The notes under the pieces are model-generated. The model was not told the origin of the DNA and ran no database searches. It saw only the letters and a list, made by a program, of their open reading frames with translations. From a virus (Duplodnaviria > Heunggongvirae > Uroviricota > Caudoviricetes): a stretch of 25,833 nt of DNA. A program made the position numbers and the translations under genes. Shown piece after piece: positions 3,016 through 24,771 of this stretch (positions are counted from its first letter, which is position 1; the number at the start of each line of letters is the position of its first letter). The DNA lies in the IMG/VR virus record IMGVR_UViG_2563366846_000009; one strand, given 5' to 3'.

Positions 3016-3593
3016 TGCGGGCCTCCTGTCGAATCGCTGCCACCTTTAACGCCACCGTGTTTATGCGTATGCACTGTGATGCCGTTTGAGGTGAAGTCGC
3101 CGCCGCTGTGCGTGATATTGCCGCTCATCTTTCCCCCTTTTGTGACGTCAATCTCGGCTGTTTTCAGAAGGTTTGTGCATTCCACGACGGGCGTATCCAG
3201 TTTCACGCTGACGGATGCCTGCAAAGTGGCCGTTTTCATGCCGCTGGCACTCAGTGCGCCTGCGTCCGCGTCGTAGCGGAACACCGCGCCATCCGGCGCG
3301 CTGACCACGATTTCTTTCAGGCTTTTGCCGGGGGCCGGACTGGCATCACTCCACAGGCTGCCAATTATCATGGCGGTTTCCGGGTTGCCGCCAATGCAGG
3401 CAATTACCACCTGTTCGCCGGGTGATGGCGGCAGCCACACATTGAAGGCTCCCGCGCGCGTGGTGTTCCAGCGCAACCAGCCTGTTTCCAGTTCGCCGCT
3501 GCGAACGCGCACGCGCCAGGACTTCTCATCAACTTCAGAGATGATCCCGGTGCGGATGATGTTGCTCAGCAGTCGCATGAGTTCTGCGCTCAC
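3012..3593 (-). CDS. V: Baseplate spike/assembly protein V
   Basis: 193-aa ORF overlapping W by 4 nt (translational coupling), position as in P2. Confidence 0.8.
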   Translation of the reverse strand: MSAELMRLLSNIIRTGIISEVDEKSWRVRVRSGELETGWLRWNTTRAGAFNVWLPPSPGEQVVIACIGGNPETAMIIGSLWSDASPAPGKSLKEIVVSAPDGAVFRYDADAGALSASGMKTATLQASVSVKLDTPVVECTNLLKTAEIDVTKGGKMSGNITHSGGDFTSNGITVHTHKHGGVKGGSDSTGGPQ

Positions 3594-4234
3594 CGTACAG
3601 CCTCCGCAATCCGGCCCAGCACCGTGTTATAAATCAGGCGCTCATCTGCCTGGCTGATACCCAGCAGCTCACGTACCGGGTAATCGGTGAAAATGCCCGG
3701 CGCAACCTGATCGCGCTCACCGAACTGATGAACGCGTGCAATACGTGCGGCCACGCCGCTGTAACCCACCGTCACACCGGAAGCATCTGCACGGGCTTTC
3801 AGGTAGCGGGCGGTGCGCAGTTTTACGAACATGGGGACGCGCTTTGTGCTGTCCTGGTTGATGCGCCGGGTGCGTATTTCCAGAAAGCGGTCGATGTCAT
3901 CCCGGTAAAACGTGCGGATGTTGTTTTTATCCTCATCCCACCCGGTGATGGTTCGCCCGTATTTCCCCGTGTCGTGATGCCAGTTTTTCAGCGTGCGTGC
4001 TTCGTTATTCCAGATAAAGCGAATGCGTTCCTGTATCCGGGTTACGCGGCGTCTGCGTGGTGTCCATGCGGTCCCGTCCGGCGCTTTCTGTGACCGGATA
4101 CGTGCCTGCTGGGCGCGACGTAAATCCTGTGCCAGCTTTCTGGCGATGTTATTGATGGCCTGCTGATTCAGGCTGTCGCGGATGGCCTCAAAGGTTTCAT
4201 CCACGCGGGTGAATGCCTTATCCATCGCTTTCAC
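3590..4234 (-). CDS. S: Virion morphogenesis / tail completion protein (S-like)
   Basis: 214-aa ORF between R and V with a basic, Arg-rich N-terminal half; assigned by synteny with P2 S. True start may be internal. Confidence 0.65.
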   Translation of the reverse strand: MKAMDKAFTRVDETFEAIRDSLNQQAINNIARKLAQDLRRAQQARIRSQKAPDGTAWTPRRRRVTRIQERIRFIWNNEARTLKNWHHDTGKYGRTITGWDEDKNNIRTFYRDDIDRFLEIRTRRINQDSTKRVPMFVKLRTARYLKARADASGVTVGYSGVAARIARVHQFGERDQVAPGIFTDYPVRELLGISQADERLIYNTVLGRIAEAVR

Positions 4235-9755: not shown

Positions 9756-11507
9756 ATGATTCAGGACGCTTTTGTGCGCCAGCGTGCGCGACAACTTTAC
9801 TGGCAGGGGTATCCGCCCGCAGAAATATCACGTCTGATGGGAATAAACCCGAACACGATTTATGCGTGGAAAAAACGGGACCAGTGGGATGAAACGCCAC
9901 CCGTGCAGCGTGTCACGCAGTCCATCGATGCGCGCCTCATCCAGCTTACTGAAAAACAGAATAAAACAGGCGGTGACTTCAAGGAAATAGACCTGCTGAC
10001 CCGGCAGCTTAAAAAGCTGCATGATGGCCAGCCGGATGCGACGGCCGCAGGAAAGAAAGGCCGGGCGAAAAAACTCAAAAATCATTTCACGCCGGAACAG
10101 ATTGCCGCACTGCGGGAAAAAATCATCAGCAGGCTGGAGTGGCATCAGCGGGGGTGGTTTGACTCCCTGACCCTTTGCAGGGAAGCCGGGATACGTAACA
10201 GGATGATCCTGAAATCCCGACAGATTGGGGCGACCTGGTATTTTGCACAGGAAGCACTGTTGATGGCGCTGCGTGACGATGTGGCGCAACCTTACCAGCG
10301 TAACCAGATTTTTTTGTCTGCGTCGCGTCGTCAGGCGTTCCAGTTTAAAAACATTATTCAGAAGGCCGCAGCTGAAGTCGATGTGGAGCTGAAAGGGGGC
10401 GATAAAATCATCCTCTCCAACGGCGCAGAGCTGCATTTTCTCGGCACTTCTGCGGCGACGGCACAGTCCTACACGGGCAATTTCTATTTTGATGAATTTT
10501 TCTGGGTCAGTCGCTTTGCTGAACTGCGCAAGGTGGCTGGCGCTATGGCAACCCTCAGCGGACTGCGGCGCACCTACTTCTCCACGCCATCCACCGAAAC
10601 GCATGAGGCATACGTTTACTGGAACGGCGACCGCTGGAACGAGAAAAAGGCCGCGCATAAACGCCAGCGTTTTTCTGTGGACTGGAAAACGCTGCATAAC
10701 GGGCTTATCTGCCCTGACCGGACGTGGCGGCAAATTGTCACGCTGGAAGATGTGGTTAATCACGGCTGGAAACACACCGATATCGACGAAATTCGTGATG
10801 AAAACACCGAAGACGAGTTCCTCAATCTCTATATGTGTGAGTTTGTCCGCGAAGGGGAATCGGCATTTAACCTGAATATCCTGATTGGCTGCGGTGTTGA
10901 CGGATACGACGACTGGAAAGACTGGAAACCTTTTGCTCCCCGCCCGATGGGGAATCGTCCGGTATGGATTGGATATGACGCAAACGGCAGCAGTGGCAAC
11001 GGCGACAGTGGCGCTGTATCCGTGGTGGTTCCTCCGGCTGTTCCTGGTGGCCGTTTTCGAACGGTGGAGACGCGACGCGTTCAGGGGCTGGAGTTTGAAG
11101 AACAGGCCAGAGTCATTGAAGAGTTCACGTATCGCTACAACGTGGAACACATCGGCATTGATGCGACGGGCGGGCACGGGGATGCCGTTTATCAGATAGT
11201 GAAAAGGTTTTTTCCCGCTGCCATCCCGTACACCTTCACGCTGTCATCAAAACGGTCGCTGGTACTGAAAATGCTGCAAATAATGCGCGCCGGGCGGTGG
11301 GAATACGATCGCGCCGAACGCGAGCTGGTCGCAGCCTTTAACGCTGTGCGTAAGGTGAAAACACCAGGCGGTTTTATCACTTACGAAACGGACCGCGCGA
11401 GGGGGATCAGCCACGGCGACCTTGCGTGGGCAACCATGCTTGCTGTCATTAACGAACCGATTGGCGGCGAAGGAGAAAACGAGCGTTTCACGGTTATGGA
11501 GTTCTGA
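9756..11507 (+). CDS. P: Terminase ATPase (large) subunit P
   Basis: 583-aa ORF with N-terminus MIQDAFVRQRARQLYWQGYPPAEISRLMGINPNTIYAWKKRD, size and position of P2 gpP. Confidence 0.9.
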   Translation: MIQDAFVRQRARQLYWQGYPPAEISRLMGINPNTIYAWKKRDQWDETPPVQRVTQSIDARLIQLTEKQNKTGGDFKEIDLLTRQLKKLHDGQPDATAAGKKGRAKKLKNHFTPEQIAALREKIISRLEWHQRGWFDSLTLCREAGIRNRMILKSRQIGATWYFAQEALLMALRDDVAQPYQRNQIFLSASRRQAFQFKNIIQKAAAEVDVELKGGDKIILSNGAELHFLGTSAATAQSYTGNFYFDEFFWVSRFAELRKVAGAMATLSGLRRTYFSTPSTETHEAYVYWNGDRWNEKKAAHKRQRFSVDWKTLHNGLICPDRTWRQIVTLEDVVNHGWKHTDIDEIRDENTEDEFLNLYMCEFVREGESAFNLNILIGCGVDGYDDWKDWKPFAPRPMGNRPVWIGYDANGSSGNGDSGAVSVVVPPAVPGGRFRTVETRRVQGLEFEEQARVIEEFTYRYNVEHIGIDATGGHGDAVYQIVKRFFPAAIPYTFTLSSKRSLVLKMLQIMRAGRWEYDRAERELVAAFNAVRKVKTPGGFITYETDRARGISHGDLAWATMLAVINEPIGGEGENERFTVMEF

Positions 11508-12553
11508 TGAGCAGAAAAAATAAAAAAGTGCGCATGAGTTCACGCATTGATCTCGCTGATGTGCTCAGGAAAGAATCGTCGCTCAGTGCATTCACATTTG
11601 ATGGTCCTTACCGCCTGACCGGGCATGATTTGCTGGACAATATGTACTGTGCTGATAACGGTCGGTGGTATGAAACCCCGGTGGACTGGTACGGTCTGGC
11701 AAGAGCAGCCCGGCAAACGTCCTGGCATCAGTCTGCGCTTTACTTTAAGCGTAATGTATTGCTCGGTTGCTATATTCCGCACCCGCTGCTTTCCCGGCAG
11801 GATTTCTCGGCGCTGGCGCTGGACTGGTTTGTGTTCGGTAACGCATTCCTTGAGCTTCGAAGCAATATGCTCGGCGAACCACTTAAATTACGGCACGCCC
11901 TGGCGAAATACATGCGACGCGGAAGCGATCTTGAATCATGGTGGTATGTGCAGGATGGCAAGGACGCGTTTCAGTTTCGCCCTGGCAAAGTGTGCCACCT
12001 GATGAATCCTGACATTAACCAGGAAATCTACGGCATGCCGGAATATCTCGGCGCATTACTCTCGGCCAGCCTGTCTCATTCGGCGGACATGTTCAGAAAA
12101 CTGTATTACGACAACGGCTCCCACGCCGGGTGCATCATCTACATCGGTGCAGCGCAGGTAAGCCGCGAAAGCATGGACTCCCTGAAGGAAACGCTACAGG
12201 GTGCGCGTGGTGGTGGTGCATTTAAAAACGTGCTCATTCATGCGCCCAACGGGGGCAAAGAGGGGGTGCAAATTTTGCCGTTCCAGCAGATCACCGCAAA
12301 GGATGAGTTCATGAATGTTAAGGCGGCATCCCGTGATGATGTGCTGGCTGCGCACCGCGTTCCGCCGCAACTGATGGGGGCGATGCCGGGTGAAAAAAGT
12401 GCGTTTGGTGATGTGGAGAAGGCCGCGCGGGTTTACGCAATTAACGAGCTGATGCCCGTCATGGAGGCCATGAAGCACATCAATGACTGGCTTGGCGAAG
12501 AGGTGATCCGTTTTAACTCTTATGCACTTCTTGATGAAAAAACAGCCCCGTGA
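11507..12553 (+). CDS. Q: Portal protein Q
   Basis: 348-aa ORF overlapping the P stop by one base, size and position of P2 gpQ. Confidence 0.9.
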   Translation: MSRKNKKVRMSSRIDLADVLRKESSLSAFTFDGPYRLTGHDLLDNMYCADNGRWYETPVDWYGLARAARQTSWHQSALYFKRNVLLGCYIPHPLLSRQDFSALALDWFVFGNAFLELRSNMLGEPLKLRHALAKYMRRGSDLESWWYVQDGKDAFQFRPGKVCHLMNPDINQEIYGMPEYLGALLSASLSHSADMFRKLYYDNGSHAGCIIYIGAAQVSRESMDSLKETLQGARGGGAFKNVLIHAPNGGKEGVQILPFQQITAKDEFMNVKAASRDDVLAAHRVPPQLMGAMPGEKSAFGDVEKAARVYAINELMPVMEAMKHINDWLGEEVIRFNSYALLDEKTAP

Positions 12554-12570: not shown

Positions 12571-13092
12571 CCAGAGTTGAACCATTTTCTGGGTGCCGTC
12601 AGGCTTGAGATTATCAATTTCAGAGAGAACGTAATATTGAATGGCTTCACAAACGGTGGTGTATGGTGAATTACCTTCTTTAAGTGGCACGATATTATTA
12701 TTAACGCGAACCTGTATTTCATCGTTATACATTGCGATCGAAAGAGGAGTATGTACGAACGCGACTTCGCCAGGTGTGTCGTCAACCACTGTCTCAATGC
12801 TAAAAGTCAGTTTTCGCTCATCATTGCTGCCTCTTGCTTTGGGGGTTGCGGCAGGAATCTGGGATAAAGGCATTCTGCGAAATCCTTCGGCCGTTTCCAG
12901 TCCGCATGAAACGTAATGCTGGCGATTACCGTCGATATCTGTCCACGCTTGTGACGGCAGATCCAGCGAGATTTCATAAGCATCAACAATTCCCTGGGCA
13001 AGGCGTACAAGCGGGGTCAGGTCTTCATTGCGGCGAAAGCTCTCCTTTACCTGCTCTCGTTTTTCTCTTAACTGCTTGTAATTAATGACCAT
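12568..13092 (-). CDS. Hypothetical 174-aa protein, low-GC cargo gene next to the portal
   Basis: ORF with ATG at 13092 preceded by GGAGG at 8-nt spacing; the track extends it to a GTG at 13131. No recognisable motif. Markedly AT-richer than flanking phage genes. Confidence 0.55.
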   Translation of the reverse strand: MVINYKQLREKREQVKESFRRNEDLTPLVRLAQGIVDAYEISLDLPSQAWTDIDGNRQHYVSCGLETAEGFRRMPLSQIPAATPKARGSNDERKLTFSIETVVDDTPGEVAFVHTPLSIAMYNDEIQVRVNNNIVPLKEGNSPYTTVCEAIQYYVLSEIDNLKPDGTQKMVQLW

Positions 13093-13193
13093 AAGACAGC
13101 CTCCATTGATTTCTTTGCTCGTATTTTGCACTTATGAAGTGTGGTCGGCAAGGTGTCGCATCACTGACGCGCTTCGCTTGTCTGCTGCTTCGC

Positions 13194-13216
13194 CGGGGCA
13201 TAAAAAATTTATGCCC
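13194..13216. other. Perfect 10-bp-stem hairpin upstream of the 174-aa gene
   Basis: ggggcataaa aaa tttatgcccc, about 100 bp upstream of the start at 13092. No adjacent T-run on either strand. Confidence 0.4.
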
Positions 13217-13504
13217 CGACTCTCCAGCTCCTGTATCAATCAGATAATTTCACAACGCCTTCCAGCTTATCGCCATCATCGACGGCCAGGCTCTTACGCA
13301 ATCCCACCGCGCTGACTGCATGTTCTCGCCGCCTCAGTGCGATTTTGACGGCCTTATCTGTCACCCCATCAAATCAAAAGCCCTCACGTCTTTTTCACGC
13401 TCAGCGTGAGAAAGACAGCCATTCTGTTGTGTCGCTGCGACATCGTTCAGGGAATGCTATTTACCCCCTGAAACGCGGGCTGTTCCCCCGTCACCTGCGC
13501 GCAG

Positions 13505-13624
13505 AAAAAACGCGTTTTTTTGTGCATGCACGGATCCTTGACGGATCCAGCCGCCATGCGGGCCGGAAGGGTAAAAAGTCGTTCAAAAAAATTGTGCAAA
13601 TTTGTGCACTATTGTGCATTGAAA
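13505..13624. promoter_or_regulatory. Cluster of palindromes and 10-bp-phased TTGTGCA direct repeats in a 520-bp non-coding region
   Basis: Palindrome aaaaaacgcgtttttt (13505..13520), palindrome gtgcatgcac (13522..13531), ggatcc-N4-ggatcc (13532..13547), then TTGTGCA at 13593, 13603 and 13613. Confidence 0.45.
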
Positions 13625-13650
13625 TAAACGCCCTGGAGGAGGGCGTTTTA
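13624..13650 (-). terminator. Intrinsic terminator downstream of the 135-aa gene
   Basis: Stem aacgccct / agggcgtt with loop ggagg directly after the stop at 13652; minus strand continues tttatttc. Confidence 0.55.
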
Positions 13651-13651
13651 C

Positions 13652-14059
13652 TTATCTTTTATAGCCTTGCCCCTTCCTGGCCAGCGCCCTGATGGCCGGG
13701 CGTGCCAACACCATATTTTGGCAATGATGAATTGCCCGGCAAAATTCATCTCTACCCATTGGATGCTCAACTGGCAACGTTAAATACAGGTTCCATGCGT
13801 CGCCTAAAAGTTGGGCTATCTTTTGTTCTTCAGATGTCAGCAAGCAAGCGGTATCCGTAAAATAATCATACTTTTCATGTATGTTATTTAACGGTTTTGT
13901 CTGTAGTGCAGCCTGAGCTATACGGTATGCCTGAAGCATACTGGCGTCGTTGATATCCATTCCGAACGGAATTTCTGATGATTGTGACTCTGCATCTTCA
14001 AGCCTGGCAATTTCTTTACGTAAGAAGTATTTCAACTCTTGTTTCTGTTTTCTGTTCAT
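13652..14059 (-). CDS. Hypothetical 135-aa protein, translationally coupled to the ClpX-zinc-finger gene
   Basis: ATG overlaps the upstream stop (ATGA at 14056..14059). Low GC. No recognisable motif. Confidence 0.6.
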
Positions 14060-14388
14060 GCGTTTTTTTCCTTTTTGTCTGTCACTTCTTTCCTGATAAT
14101 TTCATTGCACAAATCCACGCACTCATTGCAGATGTAAACAGACGGTCCGGCAATCACCTTTGTGACTTCGTACTGGGATTTATTGCAGAAACTGCAATAA
14201 ACCGTCTTCTCGCCTGAAGTCCATGTTTTGCTGGTTTCGCCAGACATCAGTTGTTTGAGGTCTTTTTCACGACGAAGAACTATCTGGCCACATTCAGCTA
14301 TTTTTTGGATGTTGACATTTTCTTCTTTCGCCAGCGCTTCCATCCGCTCAATCAGTCGCTGCGCTTTTTCTCTGTCAATGTGTTGCAT
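14056..14388 (-). CDS. Small protein with C-terminal ClpX-type C4 zinc-binding domain
   Basis: Residues [38 protein letters not shown] are near-identical to the ClpX N-terminal zinc-binding domain, with all four Cys conserved. No AAA+ module follows; the first about 55 aa are unrelated. Confidence 0.85.
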
Positions 14389-15603: not shown

Positions 15604-15756
15604 TATGTCGTTCTCCTTGTTTATGCTCTGAGGTGGAGATCAGGACGAACTCGCCCTGACGTTGTGTTATTCAGGAAATAACGCCCGGATATTTTCAGCC
15701 ATCTGACTGGTTATCTGTGCGGTTGGTGCTGGCTGTGACACGGGGCGTTCCGTCCT
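15493..15756. repeat. Copy A of the duplicated module (block G 15493..15603, block P 15601..15756)
   Basis: Counterpart of 14389..14653; includes the imperfect hairpin caggacgaactcgccctg just after the parR stop. Confidence 0.75.
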
Positions 15757-15978
15757 GTTTTGTGTCACTGATAACGCCTCATCGTCAGCCCATGCAGCCA
15801 GTCGGTAAGCCTCTGCCGGATTCATTTTCAGAAGTGCCAGCCCGGCCATAAAAGCCACGCGTTGACCGCTTTTGTGGGCTTCTGGTGTAAGGCTGTCCAG
15901 CCAGGCGCATGCTTCGCCTTCGTTCTTGACGGCGGCGGGCTTCAGATAGAAACTTATCCTCCTGGTTGATGTCGCCAT
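15667..15978 (-). CDS. parR: ParR-like partition adaptor
   Basis: ATG at 15978 sits 4 nt after the parM stop with AAGGAG upstream. The 103-aa product aligns by eye with plasmid R1 ParR (ISFYLKP..., AGLAL..., C-terminal NIRALFPE versus ILRSLFPKE). The track shows a longer ORF from 16113. Confidence 0.7.
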   Translation of the reverse strand: MATSTRRISFYLKPAAVKNEGEACAWLDSLTPEAHKSGQRVAFMAGLALLKMNPAEAYRLAAWADDEALSVTQNRTERPVSQPAPTAQITSQMAENIRALFPE

Positions 15979-15982
15979 TGAT

Positions 15983-16942
15983 TTACTCCTTGTCCATTGC
16001 GTGCAGCCCATTAACCAGAGCAAACTGTGGCACCCCGTCCGCAATGAAAGTCGCATTAACTCCGCAGGCTTCGCGGATAGCGGGTGCCACAATCTCCGCT
16101 CCTCCACCGACAACCATCACCCGCCCGTAACCCGAAAAAACCGCCAGCGCGCGGATCACGCGTTGCTTCAGTGTTTCTTCCTTTTCACGAATAACCGCCA
16201 TCAGGCTGGCGTAATGCGCGTCATTGTGGATGTGCTGGCGCAGCCAGGCTTCATCATGGCGATGTTCGATAATGGTATTGGCGATGTGGTGACTGGTGCG
16301 CATACCGTTAGTGGCCATCACCGACAGTACGGCATCGGCCATCAGAGAAACGCCTACGTGTGGATCGCAAAACACCTGGCTGATACCTGCCAGTTGCCCC
16401 TGAACCTTTGCCACATCCAGCGTGGTTCCGCCCAAATCCACAATCAGCAGGGATTCAAACGGACTCATGTCAGCCAGTGCCTTAAAGCCAGCCGGAATGG
16501 ATTCAGGCATAACCCGCACGTTACGGATAGTGAATGCTTCGCCGTTCTGGTACTTCACCGGGCGCATAACGTTCGCTTTTTTGCGGTTGATGTTGGCCAT
16601 GTCCGGCTGTGCGTTTGTGTCGAAATACTCGCTCAGTGGCAGGGTGACAACCACATCCACCTCCTGTGGCGTGATGCCTGATTTGACCAGCGCGTGATGA
16701 ATGGCAATGACATTCACATCACTGTACTGGTATTGCGTGTCGGTTGTCTGGACAAAGCGATCGCTGACCGGATCAAAACCATAGCGCACGCCATCAAGCA
16801 TGTAGTTCGCGGGCTGCGTGCCACCGAACGGCGCAGACCATTCCGACTTGAAGCTGTTCGGGCTGATAGCGTTGCGGCGTTCGCCGTTCTCAGTCCATGC
16901 CAGCTTGATGTTGGTGGAGCCGTCGTCGATACAAATTTTCAT
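15983..16942 (-). CDS. parM: ParM/StbA actin-like partition ATPase
   Basis: 319-aa protein with extensive colinear similarity to R1 ParM: IDDGSTNIKL, ISPNSFK, YSDVNV, HHAL, MPESIPAG, SLLI(V/I)DLGGTTLD, LSGIS, GVSL, GGGAE, LVNG. Confidence 0.9.
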   Translation of the reverse strand: MKICIDDGSTNIKLAWTENGERRNAISPNSFKSEWSAPFGGTQPANYMLDGVRYGFDPVSDRFVQTTDTQYQYSDVNVIAIHHALVKSGITPQEVDVVVTLPLSEYFDTNAQPDMANINRKKANVMRPVKYQNGEAFTIRNVRVMPESIPAGFKALADMSPFESLLIVDLGGTTLDVAKVQGQLAGISQVFCDPHVGVSLMADAVLSVMATNGMRTSHHIANTIIEHRHDEAWLRQHIHNDAHYASLMAVIREKEETLKQRVIRALAVFSGYGRVMVVGGGAEIVAPAIREACGVNATFIADGVPQFALVNGLHAMDKE

Positions 16943-16971: not shown

Positions 16972-17086
16972 CGTTTACGGGATTCTGAAATCCCGCTTTT
17001 GCCTGTTTTGTGCGCGCTTCATATATCGCGGCACGTTTTTTGCTCATTTACGGGATTTGTGAATCCCGTTTTTGTCTGTTTTTTGT
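16972..17086. repeat. Two tandem about 40-bp repeats, each a 7-bp-stem hairpin plus T-tract, between the parM start and the A stop
   Basis: R1 at 16972..17012 (cgggatt ctga aatcccg, then cttttgcctgttttgtg) and R2 at 17044..17086 (cgggatt tgtg aatcccg, then tttttgtctgttttttg). R2 lies inside the last about 22 codons of the A ORF. Confidence 0.6.
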
Positions 17087-19841
17087 TTCCACTGGTCAGG
17101 CCACCCCGCAGCAGGTCTGCTTTGCGGCGGGCGCGTTCAGTGGTTTCACTGATTCTCTGTGTGTGCTCTGCGTCGCGGATGGCGCGCAGCATGTCAGAAA
17201 GCACGGTAACGGGGGTTTTCATGGTGTTCTGGCCCTGCTGAAGTGTGGATGCCAGGCGTGCGGCGGCTTCAGGGGCTGATGCCCCCAGCTGTTCCAGATA
17301 GCTGGCGACCGGGTTATGGCGGATCTCCGTGCTGCTTACGCCGTGATTGCGGCTCAGGCGCTGCCAGAGCTGCGTGATTCGGCTGTCCTGGCGGGTATCC
17401 GGTTTGCGTACAATTTCAAATCCCTGCGGTGCAATGATGCTGCCGTCAACGTACAGACTGCCGCCCCGTAACAGGTGCTGCATCTGCTGTTCACCGATAT
17501 GCAGGCCGAGAGATTCAGCAGACTCCCGCCATTCTTTAGCGAGTAATTCGTGGTTATCAGGCAAAGTCCGCTGCTGTTTGCGGCTCTGTGTCCAGCTCTG
17601 CATTTCATCACTGCTGTTTTTTGCCTGTTTGTCACGAAGCGAACGCATCAGCGTCCGGCGTTCGTGCCGTTTCAGTGAGCGCATCCATTCGTTCACTTCA
17701 ACGCCGTCAGGGAGCTGCGGCCACGGTGCTGACCGTTCTTCCGGCTGTTCTGTCCCGTTGTTGTCCGTTTCCTGTACACGAGGACAGTTATTGCCACGAG
17801 TCCAAGGGGCGGCAGGGCCGCCCTGAAGGTCAAAACCATTTTCGCGGGCGCTGTCTTCCGCTTCCGGTTTACGTCTTACCAGCTTCCAGTTATCCGGATG
17901 CGTGCACACACGGGAGGATTCCCCGATGAGTGGTGACCAGATCCCGTAAATCTGTACGCTCTGTTCGCCGTAATCGTTCAGCTCATCTGCGAGGTCGTAG
18001 GCGGTGCGAATCAGGTAGTCTTTACGTGGAACAAGTACGCCACCCTGTTTTTCAATGTAGGTGGCAAAACACCCGGCATCAGCGGCAGCAAGAACCGCAT
18101 CCATTGCGTCATCCTTCAGCCGTTGCGGGCCTTCCGGGTTGCGTGCCATCTGGCTGGCAAGGCGGCGCAGTTCACGCCACACCTGACGGGAGGGGATGCC
18201 AAAGAACTGGAACTGGCGGACCCGGTGAAGGCGCGCCCAGCCGATGGCGCGCTCCACGCTCTCGGCCATTGATTTTCCGGTTTCGTGGTCAACGCGTGGT
18301 TTGCCCGTTTTCGGGTCGATGCCATCCACGGCGCGGCTGTCCAGGTTCTTTCCGATGTAGGTGGCGATGTAGCTGGTTGGCGTGCCTTTTGAGCCGTCGA
18401 CATACTCCGCCTTAAAGCGCGGAGTTATGTCATTGCCCAGCTCGTGGCGGTCTTCGCGAATGGCAATATCACGGGTGATGTCCACGATGCTGTCGATTTC
18501 TTCAGGATGTGCAAAGACCATCATGTGCCAGTGCACCGTGCCTTCATGATGAGGCTCCGCCGTGCGGATGCCATACCAGCGCAGGCCGTCGCGGTTCAGT
18601 TTTTTGCGGACCGCCGCAAAAAACGTGTTAACCAGGTAATCGCTGGAGTCGCGCATGGTGGCCCCGTTCCATTTGGGGTTCGGATGACCGTTCTCCGTTG
18701 TTGCGTGGTATTTTGACGGGCAGGTGACAGTCAGAAACACCGCTTTGTCACCACGGGCTTCGGCCAGAAGTTCCAGCCCCTTCATGGTGGCCATCATTTC
18801 TGCCTTACGGTGAACCGGGTTACTTACTCCCGCGTAATACACTGTCTCGAGATCAATCGTGAACCCGTCTTCATTTTCCAGCATGAAACTTTTCAGGAAA
18901 TCGCGTGTTTTCTCGCGCTGTGCGCGAAACTCGCTTAACGCGTCCTGGCTCAGATAGGGTGATGTTTTTCTGGAAACCAGACAGGCGGCGCGGAGTTGTT
19001 CTTCCCGCCACTCACAACGTAACAGCCACAGTTTTCGTTTCCACCATTCCGCACAGGTCAGGCGAAGGATTGCGCCCGGCAGCAGCTCCGTGTCCGGTTC
19101 GTTCCTCTGGTCTTTGTCTGTTGTCAGTGCGTCATAATGTGGAGGCATGGCGTGCAGGTGTAACGCCATGCGGGCCAGCATCTGATACGCCTTCAGGGTT
19201 ACATCCATGGTCAGCTCGCCATCGGTCGCGCCAAAGCCATCGCAGAGTTTTTCGAAGGTGCTGCTGAACATCGCCGCCGTCATGGTGGCCAGCGTCTGTA
19301 TCTGGTGCTTGTTGAGCTGCGGCAGGTAAAGCAAATCGTCCAGGCGTTCGCGTCCGGCAAGGGAGCGATAACCCGGTGTCAGCCAGCGGCTGTCGGTGCG
19401 GTCCAGACGTTCGAATATTTTGCGCAGGGTTCCGCGTGCATAGCGTTCCGCCTGCCAGCTCTTTTTGCCTTTCCGGCGATCGGCTTCCTGTTTTTTGCGC
19501 AGGAAGGAGAGGTGGCGAATAAGCGGATCGCGCAGATAGGACGGCAGCAGGCGCAGCGAGGCCATGGCTTCATCCACCGCACCGCGTGCCTGTTTTCTGG
19601 CGTCTCCTGCCAGTGTGATGGTTTTGTCCTGTTTTTCCTGTGCGTCCAGGCTTTTATTAATCAGGTTGCCCAGCGGCGTGGCGGAGAACGCCGCATCAGC
19701 CATTTCCTGGCGGCGCTCGTTCTCTGCCCGGTAGGCATCCAGCCAGGAGGAAAGCGCGGATTCAGGAGCGGGGATCCCCGTTCCTTCACGCCCGACTGCG
19801 TGGCGCGGTTGTTGCCAGTCCCTGATGTACTCTGCCGTCAT
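17019..19841 (-). CDS. A: Replication initiator A (rolling-circle, HUH-type)
   Basis: 940-aa ORF containing EPHHEGTVHWHMMVF and YIATYIGKN, matching conserved P2 gpA motifs. True start may be internal; the ORF is longer than P2 gpA. Confidence 0.85.
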   Translation of the reverse strand: MTAEYIRDWQQPRHAVGREGTGIPAPESALSSWLDAYRAENERRQEMADAAFSATPLGNLINKSLDAQEKQDKTITLAGDARKQARGAVDEAMASLRLLPSYLRDPLIRHLSFLRKKQEADRRKGKKSWQAERYARGTLRKIFERLDRTDSRWLTPGYRSLAGRERLDDLLYLPQLNKHQIQTLATMTAAMFSSTFEKLCDGFGATDGELTMDVTLKAYQMLARMALHLHAMPPHYDALTTDKDQRNEPDTELLPGAILRLTCAEWWKRKLWLLRCEWREEQLRAACLVSRKTSPYLSQDALSEFRAQREKTRDFLKSFMLENEDGFTIDLETVYYAGVSNPVHRKAEMMATMKGLELLAEARGDKAVFLTVTCPSKYHATTENGHPNPKWNGATMRDSSDYLVNTFFAAVRKKLNRDGLRWYGIRTAEPHHEGTVHWHMMVFAHPEEIDSIVDITRDIAIREDRHELGNDITPRFKAEYVDGSKGTPTSYIATYIGKNLDSRAVDGIDPKTGKPRVDHETGKSMAESVERAIGWARLHRVRQFQFFGIPSRQVWRELRRLASQMARNPEGPQRLKDDAMDAVLAAADAGCFATYIEKQGGVLVPRKDYLIRTAYDLADELNDYGEQSVQIYGIWSPLIGESSRVCTHPDNWKLVRRKPEAEDSARENGFDLQGGPAAPWTRGNNCPRVQETDNNGTEQPEERSAPWPQLPDGVEVNEWMRSLKRHERRTLMRSLRDKQAKNSSDEMQSWTQSRKQQRTLPDNHELLAKEWRESAESLGLHIGEQQMQHLLRGGSLYVDGSIIAPQGFEIVRKPDTRQDSRITQLWQRLSRNHGVSSTEIRHNPVASYLEQLGASAPEAAARLASTLQQGQNTMKTPVTVLSDMLRAIRDAEHTQRISETTERARRKADLLRGGLTSGNKKQTKTGFTNPVNEQKTCRDI

Positions 19842-20285: not shown

Positions 20286-20516
20286 TTAATGGAGTTTGTT
20301 TTGCTGCTGGATGAGATCCTGAAGAGACAGGAGGTCTTCCGCCAGATAGCTGAATACAGCGGCGCAGTAGTCGGCTGAAATAGTGCTGTTGAGTCTGTGC
20401 AATGTGTTGGATTGCATGATAAAGGCGATGTGTGCAGCGCGGGTGAGTCTGCGATCGATTTCAGTCTGGATGTGACGACGTGCAGCGTATGCGCGCTGTT
20501 GTTTGCGGTTTGCCAT
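20286..20516 (-). CDS. Hypothetical 76-aa basic protein
   Basis: ORF with GAGG upstream of the ATG at 20516. Arg/Lys-rich N-terminus. Confidence 0.45.
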   Translation of the reverse strand: MANRKQQRAYAARRHIQTEIDRRLTRAAHIAFIMQSNTLHRLNSTISADYCAAVFSYLAEDLLSLQDLIQQQNKLH

Positions 20517-20692
20517 GGTGTGGCCTCGTACGTAGTGAGTTGTGATAACCCACCGCCGCGAGTTGAGAATCTCGGGGTGGCAGGACGTATGGGGTTCTCA
20601 ACACCGGCTACGCACGAATCCGGCCCGACTGAAGTCGGCCCCATACGCCCCGCCATAATTCTGATGCGAAAAAGACGTGGCGATACGGTACG

Positions 20693-20722
20693 CACAAAAA
20701 AACCGCTGGCGCGGTTGTGCGC
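20693..20722 (-). terminator. Candidate minus-strand intrinsic terminator inside a non-coding region
   Basis: Minus strand reads aaccgc gcca gcggtt followed by tttttttg. Stem is only 6 bp. Confidence 0.35.
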
Positions 20723-20959
20723 GTGCATAGTCAGCAGGTTGAGAATCCCGGCACCCGTTTTATGAGGTGCAGCGGAAATGTAACCTGACTGATTGCGGCA
20801 TGGCAAGCGGTTTTTTTGTGTGTGCATATACAGTTTTACTCCGTTTGATCCGGTTTTTTTTGCCTTCAACCGGAAAAGAAGGGTGTGTTACGCTTGAAGC
20901 ACCCGCTGTTCCGTCAAAAACAAGGCGGGTGCTTTGTTCAACACACGTAAGGAAAATAA

Positions 20960-21046
20960 ATGTCTGATAGCGATAAATTTCATGTACCACGACAACCCGC
21001 ACCCGCTCCGGAAAAGGGGCAGGGTTGGGATGATGAGGAGGACTAG
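20960..21046 (+). CDS. Small 28-aa acidic ORF upstream of the plus-strand membrane-protein gene
   Basis: ATG preceded by taaggaaaataa; translation MSDSDKFHVPRQPAPAPEKGQGWDDEED; stop 6 nt before the next ATG. Too short to tell whether it is coding. Confidence 0.3.
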   Translation: MSDSDKFHVPRQPAPAPEKGQGWDDEED

Positions 21047-21052
21047 ATAGCA

Positions 21053-21538
21053 ATGGGTAATCAGCCATCTGAAAATAATGCTGTGTGGCGACACAAGGTG
21101 ATGTATCGCCTCTGGAATAGTTACTGGCTTGAACATATTGTGGAGGTGTTTAATCGCCGCATGGATACGGTTATCAACGCTGTTATTCTTACGTTGGGAG
21201 CCACGGTGTTTGCTGACAGTAATTTCAGTTGGCTGCTGGGCGGTATAGTGGCTGTACTTAGCGGCTGCAATATCGCCTGGAAATTTGGTCAGCGTGCGGA
21301 GGCGGCGAAAGCACAAGCCCATCGTTACAGTGTGCTGATTTCCGAAAGCGGCAATCTCAGCACGGAAGATGTGCTTAACAGGCTTCTGGAAACAGAGAAG
21401 CAGGACTCCCCAGTGATTGAAGGCATGGATACAGTCGCACGAAACAAGGCGAGTGCATCTATGGGGCTTAAACATCGCGACCAACTTTCCCTCCCTCAAA
21501 AAATCATTGCGTTACTGACTGTCGGTAATCCCGATTAA
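21053..21538 (+). CDS. 161-aa two-transmembrane protein encoded against the early operon (candidate exclusion or abortive-infection effector)
   Basis: RBS gaggagga upstream. Two predicted TM helices (VINAVILTLGATVF and WLLGGIVAVLSGCNIAW) between an aromatic-rich N-terminal helix and a charged C-terminal region. SLATT-like architecture is a guess. Confidence 0.65.
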   Translation: MGNQPSENNAVWRHKVMYRLWNSYWLEHIVEVFNRRMDTVINAVILTLGATVFADSNFSWLLGGIVAVLSGCNIAWKFGQRAEAAKAQAHRYSVLISESGNLSTEDVLNRLLETEKQDSPVIEGMDTVARNKASASMGLKHRDQLSLPQKIIALLTVGNPD

Positions 21539-21577
21539 GTGCAAACGCTTAACTTTTCATTTCTTAAAGCGCGGCTT

Positions 21578-21892
21578 TCAGTCGTGCTTTTCTGTTGCAC
21601 CAAGAAAAAAATCAAAAACGTTATCGATGCGTTGCAGCAGCTCTTGCTGCATTGCTTCCGGCGTTTCTGGTTCACCTGGCGACCCCAGCGTTGCGCAGAA
21701 ATCAGCGATTTCATGATGGAGCATCAGGCGAATGGCAGGAGCCGTGGTTCTGGCGTGCTCCAGCTCATCCAGCAGTGCCAGCACAGCAGACGGCGAGAGC
21801 ATTGCGCGAAATGCCAGTAATTTTTGAGGCGTTGCCATTCGTTGCAGGTCAAATGCCAGTTCGCGTAGCTTCTGGTGGTTGATGGTGCTCAT
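21578..21892 (-). CDS. Hypothetical 104-aa early protein
   Basis: ORF convergent with the plus-strand insert, overlapping the upstream gene by 4 nt. Confidence 0.5.
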   Translation of the reverse strand: MSTINHQKLRELAFDLQRMATPQKLLAFRAMLSPSAVLALLDELEHARTTAPAIRLMLHHEIADFCATLGSPGEPETPEAMQQELLQRIDNVFDFFLGATEKHD

Positions 21893-22155
21893 GTTCTGGC
21901 TTCCTTCAGTAGCTGGTTAAACATGTGAGTAAGTGGATTGCTACACCCGAACGGCATCGGGTTTACGTGGTAAGAAGCCTGGCCTCCAGTTTTGCGAGCG
22001 CGACCACCTGTGCTGCGGTTTGTTCTGATGACTAAGCCGCCGCGCCAAAGTCGGCGTAACTCAGCATTAATAGCTGTGGTTGGGGTGTTCAGTGCTGTGG
22101 CGATTTCTCCGCCGCTACAACCCGGATGTGTAGTGATGTAGTCCAGAATGGTCAT
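21889..22155 (-). CDS. Hypothetical 88-aa early protein, possibly DNA-binding
   Basis: Coupled ORF; Gly/Arg/Thr-rich basic stretch (RTNRSTGGRARKTGGQ). Any fold assignment is a guess. Confidence 0.45.
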   Translation of the reverse strand: MTILDYITTHPGCSGGEIATALNTPTTAINAELRRLWRGGLVIRTNRSTGGRARKTGGQASYHVNPMPFGCSNPLTHMFNQLLKEART

Positions 22156-23937: not shown

Positions 23938-24192
23938 TTATGCTGCTTTACCGCTGATGTTTCTGTTTCGTCTGCCACTTGTTGGCTTAAACAAAAACAG
24001 ACGGTTTTCCCAGTCGTGCCATTCCTGAGGTGCGTTTTCGATGAGGCGATCGCATGCTTCATCCCACGCTTTTCTGTTGATGTAGAGTTCAGCGTTTCCG
24101 CCTGGCTTGAGAGGGTCCGCCATATACACCGCAGGTAGCTTTCCTGCTTTTGCCATGCTTACGATGGCATCAACGGTCTTTCCGATATACAT
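23938..24192 (-). CDS. cox: Cox-like excisionase/early regulator; N-terminal extent uncertain
   Basis: Core (E)GFAMYIGKTVDAIVSMAKAGKLPAVYMADP aligns with the P2 Cox HTH region. ATG at 24192 has GAAGGA upstream. The same frame stays open to 24402, and a 73-aa ORF in another frame (24159..24380) lies upstream. Confidence 0.6.
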   Translation of the reverse strand: MYIGKTVDAIVSMAKAGKLPAVYMADPLKPGGNAELYINRKAWDEACDRLIENAPQEWHDWENRLFLFKPTSGRRNRNISGKAA

Positions 24193-24402
24193 CGCAAATC
24201 CTTCTTTTGACAGAAGATGCGAGGGATTTTCTGAAAGTCGAATTTCTTCACGTTCACGTGCTTTGCGTCCTGTTTTTTGATGCTCCCCCTCTGGCATTTC
24301 TGACAGGTGATCGCATCGTGTTCCGCAAAGTGACTCAGGCGCGTTTTGAGTGCTTTCTTGCATCTGATATCCTCCGCCATTGGTGCTCTTTCTAATTGGC
24401 AC

Positions 24403-24477: not shown

Positions 24478-24771
24478 ATGGACATTCCTCAAAAAATTCG
24501 CGTCATGCGCAAATCTGAAGATCTCACTCAGCGGGAATTCGCTGATATGATTGGAATTTCTTATTCTGCTCTGACCAGTTATGAGTATGGTCGTAACCTT
24601 CCTGGCCTTGAGATCACTATCAAGCTTTTCAAGCATCCGAGATTTTCTAAATACCGCGACTGGTTTCTGTTTGATGAAGTTGAACCCAAGGCCGGGCAGG
24701 TTGTACCGGCTCTCGCACACATTGGGCAAGACGAAGCGGAATCATCCCGCTCCGGCAAGAAGACTGGTTAA
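24478..24771 (+). CDS. C: Immunity repressor C (P2 type)
   Basis: 97-aa protein (IRVMRKSEDLTQREFADMIGISYSALTSYEYGRNLP...ALAHIGQDEAESSRSGKKTG) collinear with P2 C including the identical C-terminal SGxKTG. AGGAG RBS. The track's longer ORF from 24406 would overlap the operator region. Confidence 0.85.
   Translation: MDIPQKIRVMRKSEDLTQREFADMIGISYSALTSYEYGRNLPGLEITIKLFKHPRFSKYRDWFLFDEVEPKAGQVVPALAHIGQDEAESSRSGKKTG

What the first reader, a model, noticed from the sequence alone, without database searches (positions are those of the whole stretch)
20870..21538. Plus-strand insert in the early region: 28-aa acidic peptide plus a two-transmembrane protein
These are the only plus-strand genes between Q and C, inserted against the direction of the early operon, each with its own RBS. 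The 161-aa protein has two closely spaced TM helices flanked by amphipathic regions, an architecture shared by many phage exclusion and abortive-infection effectors. The upstream 28-aa acidic ORF could be a leader peptide or small partner. An inverted repeat (agcacccgc...gcgggtgct) lies just upstream.
Basis: partly seen in the sequence, partly recalled or inferred. Interest (0 to 1): 0.65.

Follow-up and report, generated by a model that had tools for sequence, protein, structure and literature searches.

The report
Prophage micropeptide plus SLATT-like membrane protein
A 775-bp insert in a P2-like (P88-type) prophage carries two real genes: a conserved proline-rich micropeptide and a two-transmembrane protein distantly related to SLATT membrane effectors. 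The same pair recurs in many prophages, always pointing against the local phage operon. That makes it an untested candidate for a prophage-borne exclusion or suicide system.

Summary
Both plus-strand ORFs exist (28 aa, 20960-21046; 161 aa, 21053-21538). Each has a Shine-Dalgarno sequence, and the inverted repeat lies at 20898-20906/20925-20933.

They belong to a 775-bp insert (20828-21602) in the early operon of a P88-like prophage. Most related E. coli prophages have this site empty.

Both genes are under purifying selection on the plus strand. The long minus-strand ORF over them is a shadow.

The 161-aa protein belongs to an uncharacterised family of about 164 clusters. Pfam, PADLOC and sequence and fold searches of solved structures (PDB) give no specific match. 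Repeated sub-threshold SLATT_4 matches (45 of 97 members) and SLATT-annotated top fold matches make it a divergent SLATT-like protein.

The small ORF is a real partner. Its core motif, [DE]x[FY]H[VI]..[RK]P[AP]P, survives in 13 of 15 loci. The acidic tail mostly encodes the next gene's ribosome-binding site.

The cassette was found only in prophages (P2/186-like including Fels-2, one lambdoid, one Mu-like), at 10 or more different sites. It always opposes the flanking operon.

The best reading is a self-contained moron expressed in lysogens, with a membrane effector for exclusion or abortive infection that the micropeptide regulates. The function is inferred, not shown.

The parts
20828..21602 (+). 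The inserted cassette as a whole, 775 bp. It replaces 21 bp of the empty site in related P88-like phages.
   Evidence: blastn against L002 (empty site), L001 and L003: homology stops at 20827 and resumes at 21602/21603. Homology to the cassette in another P2-like lineage (L005) spans 20849-21510.
20884..20894 (+). TGTGTTACGCT, matching TGTGnTAnnnT. It looks like an extended -10 promoter (TG 20886-20887, hexamer TACGCT 20889-20894). The predicted transcription start is near 20901.
   Evidence: T, G, T, G, T, A and the last T are invariant or nearly invariant across 11 of 12 aligned loci whose neighbouring sequence is otherwise diverged. That it is a promoter is inferred; the consensus scan did not call it.
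20898..20933 (+). It would sit at or very near the 5' end of the cassette mRNA.
   Evidence: RNA fold of 20885-20959: z = -3.7. RNAalifold finds a 7-bp consensus stem with 5 pairs showing compensatory changes. It is absent or short in Fels-2, L018 and L021.
20960..21046 (+). Micropeptide gene, 28 aa: MSDSDKFHVPRQPAPAPEKGQGWDDEED. The conserved core is DKFHVPRxPAPxP.
   Evidence: A homologous small ORF lies directly upstream of the 2TM gene in 13 of 15 loci examined. Window versus L005: 8 synonymous and 2 non-synonymous codon differences, read directly. Other pairs are dominated by third-position changes.
21035..21041 (+). Shine-Dalgarno GAGGAGG of the 2TM gene, embedded in the last codons (Glu-Glu-Asp) of the micropeptide gene.
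   Evidence: Sequence. The equivalent GAGGA or AAGGA is at the same place in homologues.
21053..21538 (+). Gene for a 161-aa SLATT-like protein with two transmembrane helices. TM1 is about residues 39-54 and TM2 about 58-76. Both termini are predicted cytoplasmic, and there is a conserved C-terminal helical region (residues 104-160).
   Evidence: pLDDT 94.5; 164 family clusters; SLATT_4 in 45 of 97 members; SLATT fold matches; third-position substitution pattern.
21566..21596 (+). Terminator-like hairpin (11-bp stem, 3-nt loop, 21566-21590) followed by UCUGUU. It overlaps the 3' end of the opposing ead/Ea22-like gene.
   Evidence: RNA fold -18.8 kcal/mol, z = -3.1. A clearer terminator follows the Photobacterium homologue. 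The simple consensus scan did not call it.
20888..21499 (-). Shadow ORF of 203 aa, in phase with both real genes. It is not a gene.
   Evidence: The antisense in-phase frame has 3-11 stops in 7 of the 8 more distant family members, while the sense frame is always open. Substitutions concentrate at sense third positions.

Best explanation
The finding is a self-contained accessory cassette (a 'moron') that has landed in the early operon of a P88-like, P2-family prophage.

It is probably transcribed from its own extended -10-type promoter. The mRNA would begin with a stabilising or regulatory stem-loop. The cassette encodes two closely spaced, possibly translationally coupled products and ends in its own terminator.

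- Product 1 is a proline-rich micropeptide of about 27-56 aa with the core motif [DE]x[FY]H[VI]..[RK]P[AP]P.
- Product 2 is an inner-membrane protein of about 160 aa. It has an N-in/C-in hairpin of two transmembrane helices and is a divergent relative of SLATT pore-type effectors.

The cassette always opposes the surrounding phage operon. I infer that it is expressed in the lysogen, when that operon is repressed, and is silenced by convergent transcription once the prophage turns lytic.

The most likely role is phage-against-phage conflict. The membrane protein would permeabilise or depolarise the inner membrane, or block it, when another phage infects. The micropeptide would act as its regulator, either as an inhibitor or sensor partner or through the act of its translation.

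Shown here: the cassette structure, the conservation of both genes, the coding strand, the SLATT-like fold, the restriction to prophages and the orientation rule. Inferred: promoter use, expression in lysogeny, membrane damage, defence and the peptide's role.
For: The cassette comes and goes.
- The site is empty in vB_EcoM-569R5, and other cargo occupies it in P88 and Shae_phiSM.
- About 47 of 60 sampled E. coli genomes with these flanks have them contiguous.
- The cassette is present in 11 of 5426 complete E. coli genomes.

Both genes are selected on the plus strand.

The family.
- It comprises 164 clusters at 50% identity, nearly all 150-170 aa.
- The AF2 model has pLDDT 94.5.
- SLATT_4 matches 45 of 97 members (best E = 1.2e-5), and SLATT_1 matches 13.
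- Foldseek top hits are SLATT-annotated proteins, probability 1.0, TM-score 0.55-0.67.
- UniRef labels two members DUF4231 and SLATT.

The micropeptide is conserved even where the 2TM proteins are only about 21% identical: Photobacterium has SDKFHVPQREIPPPP.

Context. Every context examined is a prophage, and the cassette opposes both neighbours in each.
- P2/186-like early regions in Escherichia, Yersinia, Kosakonia, Arsenophonus, Photobacterium, Hafnia and Salmonella, including Fels-2 of strain LT2.
- One lambdoid prophage, next to the repressor.
- One Mu-like prophage, in the late region.

Expression signals are conserved: the promoter-like motif, the 5' stem with covariation and the terminator.

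SLATT proteins are described as predicted pore-forming toxins, and the SLATT component is needed for the toxicity of the DRT10 defence system (bioRxiv 10.64898/2026.04.29.721553).
Against: - No phenotype data of any kind.
- No match in PADLOC. No curated SLATT model is reached at its cut-off, and Pfam finds nothing.
- No sensor or nucleotide-synthase partner of the kind that accompanies known SLATT effectors.
- One Salmonella lineage (L027) keeps an intact 2TM gene with only ATG-TAG in place of the micropeptide. The peptide is therefore not an indispensable antitoxin.
- The periplasmic loop is only about 3-5 residues, which argues against a classical block of DNA injection.
- The promoter call rests on a motif only. 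The consensus scan found no sigma-70 promoter there.
- The 5' stem is missing in some members.
Confidence: 0.45

Rival explanations
1. The small ORF is only a cis-acting leader. Its translation, perhaps slowed by the proline-rich stretch, delivers ribosomes to the 2TM start 6-8 nt downstream and so sets how much membrane protein is made. The peptide itself would have no function in trans.
For: - The gap is 6-8 nt and the ribosome-binding site of the 2TM gene lies inside the end of the small ORF.
- L027 replaces the ORF with a start-stop (ATG-TAG) at the same place yet keeps the 2TM gene.
- Some versions carry PPPP or PPVPPKPP runs, which by general knowledge depend on EF-P.
Against: - The amino-acid core [FY]H[VI]..[RK]P[AP]P is conserved far beyond what coupling needs, with mostly synonymous change.
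- The window's version has no consecutive prolines.
- In the lambdoid locus L014, two further mini-ORFs with the same motif lie downstream of the 2TM gene, where they cannot act as its leader.
- No consistent RNA structure hides the 2TM ribosome-binding site.
Confidence: 0.2
2. It is an addiction (toxin-antitoxin-like) module that stabilises the prophage. The 2TM protein would be a membrane toxin and the labile micropeptide its antitoxin. Any anti-phage effect would be secondary.
For: - The order is small gene first, then the putative toxin, tightly spaced.
- The SLATT-type membrane effector is predicted to be toxic.
- The host phage also carries a ParM/StbB-type partition pair, which suggests pressure for stable maintenance.
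Against: - L027 keeps the 2TM gene without the peptide.
- Most related prophages do without the cassette.
- There is no similarity to known toxin-antitoxin families.
Confidence: 0.12
3. It is a lysogeny-stabilising or lysogenic-conversion element with no role in defence. Either convergent transcription from the cassette dampens the early promoter Pe, or the membrane protein changes host physiology.
For: - The orientation is strictly antisense at 10 or more different insertion sites.
- In Kosakonia (L007) the cassette lies between cox and C, where the early transcript probably has to cross it.
Against: - Interference alone would not need two conserved proteins under purifying selection.
- Antisense orientation is equally explained by the need to keep a constitutive promoter from reading into lytic genes.
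Confidence: 0.15
4. The real gene is the long minus-strand ORF (20888-21499, 203 aa), a normal member of the early operon. This is how the homologous stretch is annotated in Fels-2 (STM2733.1) and in Yersinia phage vB_YenM_42.18 (gene 008).
For: The ORF is open in the window and in close relatives. Two public records annotate that strand.
Against: - It is in phase with the plus-strand genes, so it can be interrupted only by the sense codons TTA, CTA and TCA.
- It has 3-11 stops in 7 of the 8 more distant family members.
- Substitutions fall on sense third positions.
- The plus-strand protein gives a pLDDT of 94.5 and a family of 164 clusters.
Confidence: 0.02
5. It is a holin or antiholin-like regulator of the phage's own lysis.
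For: It is a small protein with two transmembrane helices and both termini predicted cytoplasmic, like class II holins by general knowledge.
Against: - It is not in the lysis cassette.
- It opposes the lytic transcripts.
- It is twice the size of class II holins.
- It is absent from most sister phages.
- The only lysis-related PHROG match is insignificant (E = 0.052).
Confidence: 0.04

Closest known systems
[quoted passage not shown]
   Same: - A helical hairpin with two closely spaced transmembrane helices, a long preceding helix and a long following helix.
- Consistent weak profile matches over residues about 24-103.
- The best fold matches are SLATT-annotated proteins.
- It is found in conflict-prone mobile DNA.
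   Different: - It scores far below the curated cut-offs (14.7 bits against 55).
- It is stand-alone, with no CD-NTase/SMODS, SLOG, TIR or reverse-transcriptase partner.
- It has its own conserved C-terminal helical region (residues 104-160).
- It is paired with a micropeptide.
Phage morons and lysogenic-conversion cassettes, such as P2 tin, old and fun(Z), and the P2/P4 defence hotspots of Rousset et al. 2022 (PMC9122126)
   Same: It is an autonomous promoter-gene-terminator unit present in some but not other sister prophages. It is carried by P2-family phages, which are known to hold anti-phage cargo.
   Different: - It is not at the described P2 hotspot between gene A and the portal gene. 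It sits inside the early operon, and the site differs from phage to phage.
- It matches none of the PADLOC models, which include those systems.
Prophage membrane exclusion and abortive-infection proteins (lambda RexB, P22 SieB, T4 Imm, HK97 gp15); comparison from general knowledge
   Same: They are small inner-membrane proteins made by a resident phage and act against incoming phages.
   Different: There is no sequence or profile similarity. Almost nothing is exposed to the periplasm, and there is a micropeptide partner.
Proline-rich ribosome-targeting peptides and arrest peptides (oncocin and apidaecin type YLPRPRPP/YIPQPRPP; SecM and ApdA type); a lead from memory only
   Same: An aromatic residue, a hydrophobic residue, then Pro/Arg/Lys-rich runs (FHVPRKPAP, FHIPPRPRPP) in a short unstructured peptide.
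   Different: The peptides are cytoplasmic products of a prophage, not secreted host-defence peptides. The motif is short and of low complexity.

Membership tests
SLATT domain superfamily | Match to a curated SLATT profile at or above its cut-off | tested here: not met
   NCBIfam SLATT_4 gives E = 0.021 and 14.7 bits against a cut-off of 55 for the window protein. The best family member reaches E = 1.2e-5, still below the cut-off. Pfam SLATT models give no hit for the window protein and one weak SLATT_fungal hit among 97 members.
SLATT domain superfamily | Consistent remote sequence similarity across the family | tested here: met
   Of 97 members, 45 match SLATT_4, 13 match SLATT_1 and 2 match SLATT_fungal at E <= 0.1. 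No unrelated model recurs in more than 5 members. UniRef names for P0173 (DUF4231) and P0202 (SLATT) agree.
SLATT domain superfamily | Fold: two adjacent transmembrane helices in a helical hairpin with flanking helices | tested here: met
SLATT domain superfamily | Genomic association with a nucleotide-generating or nucleotide-sensing partner (SMODS/CD-NTase, SLOG, TIR, RT) | tested here: not met
   None is found in the cassette or next to it in any of about 15 contexts.
Phage moron (autonomous accessory cassette) | Present or absent between otherwise collinear phage genomes | tested here: met
   Exact boundaries are 20828 and 21602 against the empty site. Most E. coli relatives have the site empty.
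Phage moron (autonomous accessory cassette) | Own promoter and terminator | tested here: inconclusive
   The TGTGnTAnnnT motif is conserved and a terminator-like hairpin follows the gene. Neither is called by the simple scan, and there are no transcript data.
Phage moron (autonomous accessory cassette) | Expressed from the repressed prophage | not testable with these tools
   Inferred only from the orientation against the repressed operon.
Toxin-antitoxin module | Antitoxin gene always accompanies the toxin gene | tested here: not met
   L027 has an intact 168-aa 2TM gene (its cluster, P0114, holds 24 sequences) with only ATG-TAG upstream.
Known anti-phage defence systems (PADLOC-DB 2.0) | Match to any model of a known or candidate defence protein | tested here: not met
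   No hit for either product at E <= 1.

The most novel reading that the evidence does not exclude
The cassette is a previously unrecognised two-component prophage immunity system. A stand-alone SLATT-like pore would be gated by a genetically coupled, proline-rich micropeptide that reads the state of the translation machinery, for example as a short-lived inhibitor lost when an invading phage shuts off host translation, or as a peptide that engages the ribosome. Membrane collapse would then be triggered without any nucleotide second messenger.
Probability: 0.15. Interest if true: 0.8.

Novelty: new variant of a known kind. Interest (0 to 1): 0.55.

Why it matters
SLATT proteins are among the commonest predicted effectors in bacterial immune systems, yet how they are switched on and what they do to the membrane is largely unknown.

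- This version is the smallest found so far: one SLATT-like protein and one micropeptide, with no enzyme partner. That would make it a simple system for studying how such effectors are gated.
- It occurs in a genetically tractable model, prophage Fels-2 of Salmonella Typhimurium LT2.
- It adds a conserved micropeptide gene that no record examined here annotates.
- It shows that at least two public phage records (Fels-2 and Yersinia phage vB_YenM_42.18) annotate the wrong strand at this locus.
- It shows that P2-family phages carry accessory cargo inside the early operon, not only at the known hotspots.

Tried and rejected
- Pfam, PADLOC and PHROGs give no functional assignment. The weak ATP-synt_I hit (E = 0.001, below cut-off) is a generic match to a transmembrane hairpin.
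- The AlphaFold database Foldseek library was not available.
- The first AF2 run with 13 close homologues was poor (pLDDT 56). It was replaced by the 97-sequence run.
- Fetching loci with the 97-sequence alignment failed because no block was conserved enough. The genome-contig scan found only one locus.
- Looking for an RNA structure that hides the 2TM ribosome-binding site gave no consistent occlusion.
- The upstream CCGGTT...AACCGG hairpin in the window (20849-20874) is not significant (z = -1.1).
- The idea that the inverted repeat is an intrinsic terminator was rejected, because no T-run follows it on either strand.
- A literature search for STM2734 found nothing. Searches for SLATT with 'prophage' or 'small peptide' found no description of this cassette.
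- The hypothesis of a highly variable hotspot at this slot was rejected, because the site is empty in most relatives.
- A true profile-profile test against SLATT alignments could not be run, because no SLATT alignment was obtainable here.

Full report
**What the window is.** The window is a P2-family prophage of the P88 type (genus Xuanwuvirus).
- Replication gene A is at 17019-19841 (-), with Pfam Phage_GPA at E = 7.9e-130.
- cox is at 23938-24402 (-) and the C repressor at 24478-24771 (+). The integrase follows from 24802.
- Portal and terminase genes lie at 9756-12553 (+).
- Megablast of 20500-21900 against phage genomes finds P88-like phages that match only the two flanks (45% coverage).
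- The early operon therefore runs on the minus strand, and the finding lies inside it.

**The observation.**
- Each has a Shine-Dalgarno sequence.
- The second one, GAGGAGG at 21035-21041, lies inside the last codons of the first ORF. Only 6 nt separate the stop from the next start.
- The inverted repeat is at 20898-20906/20925-20933.
- The 161-aa protein has two hydrophobic segments (about 39-54 and 58-76) joined by a very short loop.

**It is an insertion.**
- Against the empty site of phage vB_EcoM-569R5 (L002), homology ends at 20827 and resumes at 21603. The insert is therefore 775 bp and replaces 21 bp.
- P88 has a different cargo there (a membrane protein plus an SPFH/'lipoprotein' gene). 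Citrobacter phage Shae_phiSM has a DNA-binding protein.
- The slot is not a busy hotspot. The joined flanks occur in 1169 of 5426 complete E. coli genomes, and about 47 of the 60 sampled rows have them contiguous.
- The cassette itself occurs in 11 of 5426 genomes. One copy is at this site (98.5% identical). Ten are an 80%-identical variant; the one examined (L005) lies in another P2-like prophage.
- The last eight codons of the neighbouring ead/Ea22-like ORF (21578-21602) come from the inserted DNA.

**Which strand codes.** A 203-aa minus-strand ORF (20888-21499) overlaps both genes. The equivalent ORF is what the public records of Fels-2 (STM2733.1) and Yersinia phage vB_YenM_42.18 annotate. 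It is a shadow ORF.
- It is in phase with the plus-strand codons.
- It has 3-11 stops in 7 of the 8 more distant homologues, whereas the plus-strand frame is always open.
- Substitutions between homologues pile up on plus-strand third positions, for example 27/20/71 by codon position for window versus L005.

**The 2TM protein.**
- Word-indexed search finds 15 close relatives, all 'hypothetical'.
- An exhaustive HMM search finds 164 clusters at 50% identity, nearly all 150-170 aa.
- The family shares conserved positions: Y/S at 22-23, E27, R36, G49, G63, Q88, Y92, D118, A129 and a C-terminal GG(I/L)P.
- Pfam and PADLOC give nothing, and PHROGs gives phrog_6315, 'unknown function'.
- NCBIfam gives sub-threshold but consistent matches: SLATT_4 in 45 of 97 members (best 1.2e-5; window protein 0.021) and SLATT_1 in 13.
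- With the 97-sequence alignment, AlphaFold2 gives pLDDT 94.5 and pTM 0.87: a long helical hairpin followed by three short helices.
- Foldseek against predicted viral structures puts SLATT-annotated proteins first (E = 2.6e-3 and up, probability 1.0, TM-score 0.55-0.67).
- PDB holds no specific match.
- UniRef already labels two members DUF4231 and SLATT.
- I conclude that it is a divergent, stand-alone SLATT-like protein. It does not meet any curated family threshold, and it lacks the enzyme partner typical of SLATT systems.

**The small ORF is a real gene.** A small ORF sits 6-8 nt upstream of the 2TM gene in 13 of 15 loci examined.

| Locus | Source | Small-ORF product |
|---|---|---|
| window | P88-like prophage | MSDSDKFHVPRQPAPAPEKGQGWDDEED |
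| L007 | Kosakonia | MSDTDKFHVPRKPAPSPEKGQSGDEED |
| L030 | Fels-2 | MSDSDNFHVLPRPAPAPKPEPGQDKK |
| L018 | Arsenophonus | ...DYHRIHRPAPAEQ... |
| L006 | Yersinia phage | ...NDFHILHKPAPPEE... |
| L025 | Salmonella | ...EPFHITRRPAPDSG... |
| L021 | Photobacterium | ...SDKFHVPQREIPPPPTKNKD |

- In the Photobacterium locus the 2TM proteins are only about 21% identical to the window's, yet the motif persists.
- Window versus L005 shows 8 synonymous and 2 non-synonymous codon changes. Other pairs are likewise dominated by third-position changes.
In distant members the tail is basic or Gln-rich.
- In the close group, the tail's codons GAG-GAG/GAG-GA double as the ribosome-binding site of the next gene.
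- Two variants matter for interpretation. A lambdoid locus (L014) has three mini-ORFs with the motif, two of them downstream of the 2TM gene. One Salmonella lineage (L027) has only ATG-TAG upstream.

**Expression signals.**
- An alignment of 12 upstream regions shows a nearly invariant TGTGnTAnnnT (window 20884-20894) amid diverged sequence. The conserved bases are those that matter in an extended -10 promoter.
- The stem-loop begins 3-5 nt after this motif.
- Its sequence differs between lineages (AGCACCCGC, TATGCC, TACGCCC, CTGCGCCCG and others) but the pairing is kept. RNAalifold finds 7 pairs, 5 of them with compensatory changes.
- Eight of the 11 leader regions folded have z <= -2.
- I read the stem-loop as a hairpin at the 5' end of the mRNA. 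That is inference: an operator is less likely because the arms vary freely and the cassette has no regulator.
- A terminator-like hairpin follows the gene (21566-21596, z = -3.1). The Photobacterium homologue has a textbook terminator.

**Context rule.** Every context examined is a prophage, and the cassette opposes both neighbours in each.
- P2/186-like early regions in Escherichia, Yersinia, Kosakonia, Enterobacter-type viral contigs, Arsenophonus, Photobacterium, Hafnia and Salmonella, including Fels-2.
- One lambdoid prophage, beside the repressor gene.
- One Mu-like prophage, between late genes.
- Sources.
- The insertion point differs in at least ten of these contexts.
- In Kosakonia the cassette lies between cox and C. 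Operator-like repeats sit next to C, so the early transcript probably has to cross the cassette.
- The simplest reason for the rule is that a promoter active in lysogens must not read into lytic genes. A side effect would be mutual interference with the early promoter.

**Mechanism proposed.** In the lysogen the cassette would make a micropeptide and a SLATT-like inner-membrane protein.
- By analogy with SLATT effectors, the membrane protein most likely damages or gates the inner membrane during infection by a competing phage. SLATT proteins are predicted pore formers, and the SLATT component is required for DRT10 toxicity.
- The micropeptide would control the membrane protein.
- None of this was tested. 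My confidence is about 0.45 for the whole chain, about 0.9 for 'real mobile two-gene cassette' and about 0.7 for 'SLATT-like'.
- The rivals are a leader-only role for the small ORF, an addiction module, a lysogeny-stabilising or conversion element, a minus-strand gene, and a lysis regulator. Each is weighed in the rival section.

**Novelty.** No paper found describes this cassette. It matches no PADLOC model, and it lies outside the published P2 hotspot. It is a new variant of a known kind: a stand-alone SLATT-like effector with a conserved micropeptide partner, carried as a prophage moron.

Noticed in passing
window 20573-20660 (-) and 20696-20770 (-): Rfam finds a C4 antisense RNA (75.5 bits) and an IsrK Hfq-binding RNA (58.4 bits) side by side. 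They lie just upstream, in the early-operon direction, of the 'derepression protein' gene (20286-20516). A promoter-like site for IsrK is at 20806-20777. This probably forms an antirepressor-type control module as in P1/P7. Public records annotate spurious ORFs over it (P88 gp13; URC09556.1).
   Followed up: partly
window 15983-16942 (-), 15667-16113 (-), 14056-14388 (-): Downstream of replication gene A there is a ParM-type actin-like segregation protein and a Plasmid_stab_B partner, then a small protein with a ClpX-type zinc finger. P88 has the same genes. This is unusual equipment for an integrating prophage.
   Followed up: no
L030 (Fels-2) 3504-3908 (-); L006 (Yersinia phage vB_YenM_42.18) 3812-4477 (-): Both public records annotate the shadow ORF on the early-operon strand (STM2733.1; gene 008) instead of the two real plus-strand genes. 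No record examined here annotates the micropeptide gene.
   Followed up: yes
L007 5800-5835; the same element in L006, L010, L012, L013, L018, L023 and L030: Upstream of the promoter-like motif, the other cassette lineages carry two mutually exclusive hairpins: GCCGGG...CCCGGC, and CCATG...CATGG followed by TTTTGTGG. Both show compensatory changes (CCCTG/CAGGG in L010, CCGT/ACGG in L013, GCCGAG/CTCGGC in L023). The arrangement looks like a terminator/antiterminator pair, but it lies upstream of the presumed start. Unexplained. The window has a different, weak hairpin there (20849-20874).
   Followed up: partly
L014 5480-5570 and 5904-6640: The lambdoid E. coli version has three proline-rich mini-ORFs around the 2TM gene (…HVPLRQKPPVPPKPPKEN, …HVPPKPKPPKPKK, …FHIPPRPRPPDPGPK). 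About 400 bp upstream it also has a long perfect inverted repeat (acaaaacagagaagaaca…tgctcttctctgttttgt). From memory, the mini-ORFs resemble proline-rich ribosome-targeting peptides.
   Followed up: no
window 20940-20959; equivalents in L007, L010, L012, L013 and L014: A C/A-rich unstructured tract ending in ACAAGGA(G/U) precedes the micropeptide start codon. In several loci it can pair with the conserved UUGUGG upstream. From memory, it resembles a CsrA-binding site.
   Followed up: no
L007 5497-7062: In a Kosakonia prophage the cassette sits inside the lysis-lysogeny switch, between cox and the C repressor gene and co-directional with C and int. Operator-like repeats lie next to C.
   Followed up: partly
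window 13085-13315 (+) and 13345-13692 (+): Two plus-strand ORFs (76 and 115 aa) lie between the portal gene and the minus-strand block. They have no Pfam match and are of unresolved status. If real, the cassette genes would not be the only plus-strand genes between Q and C.
   Followed up: no
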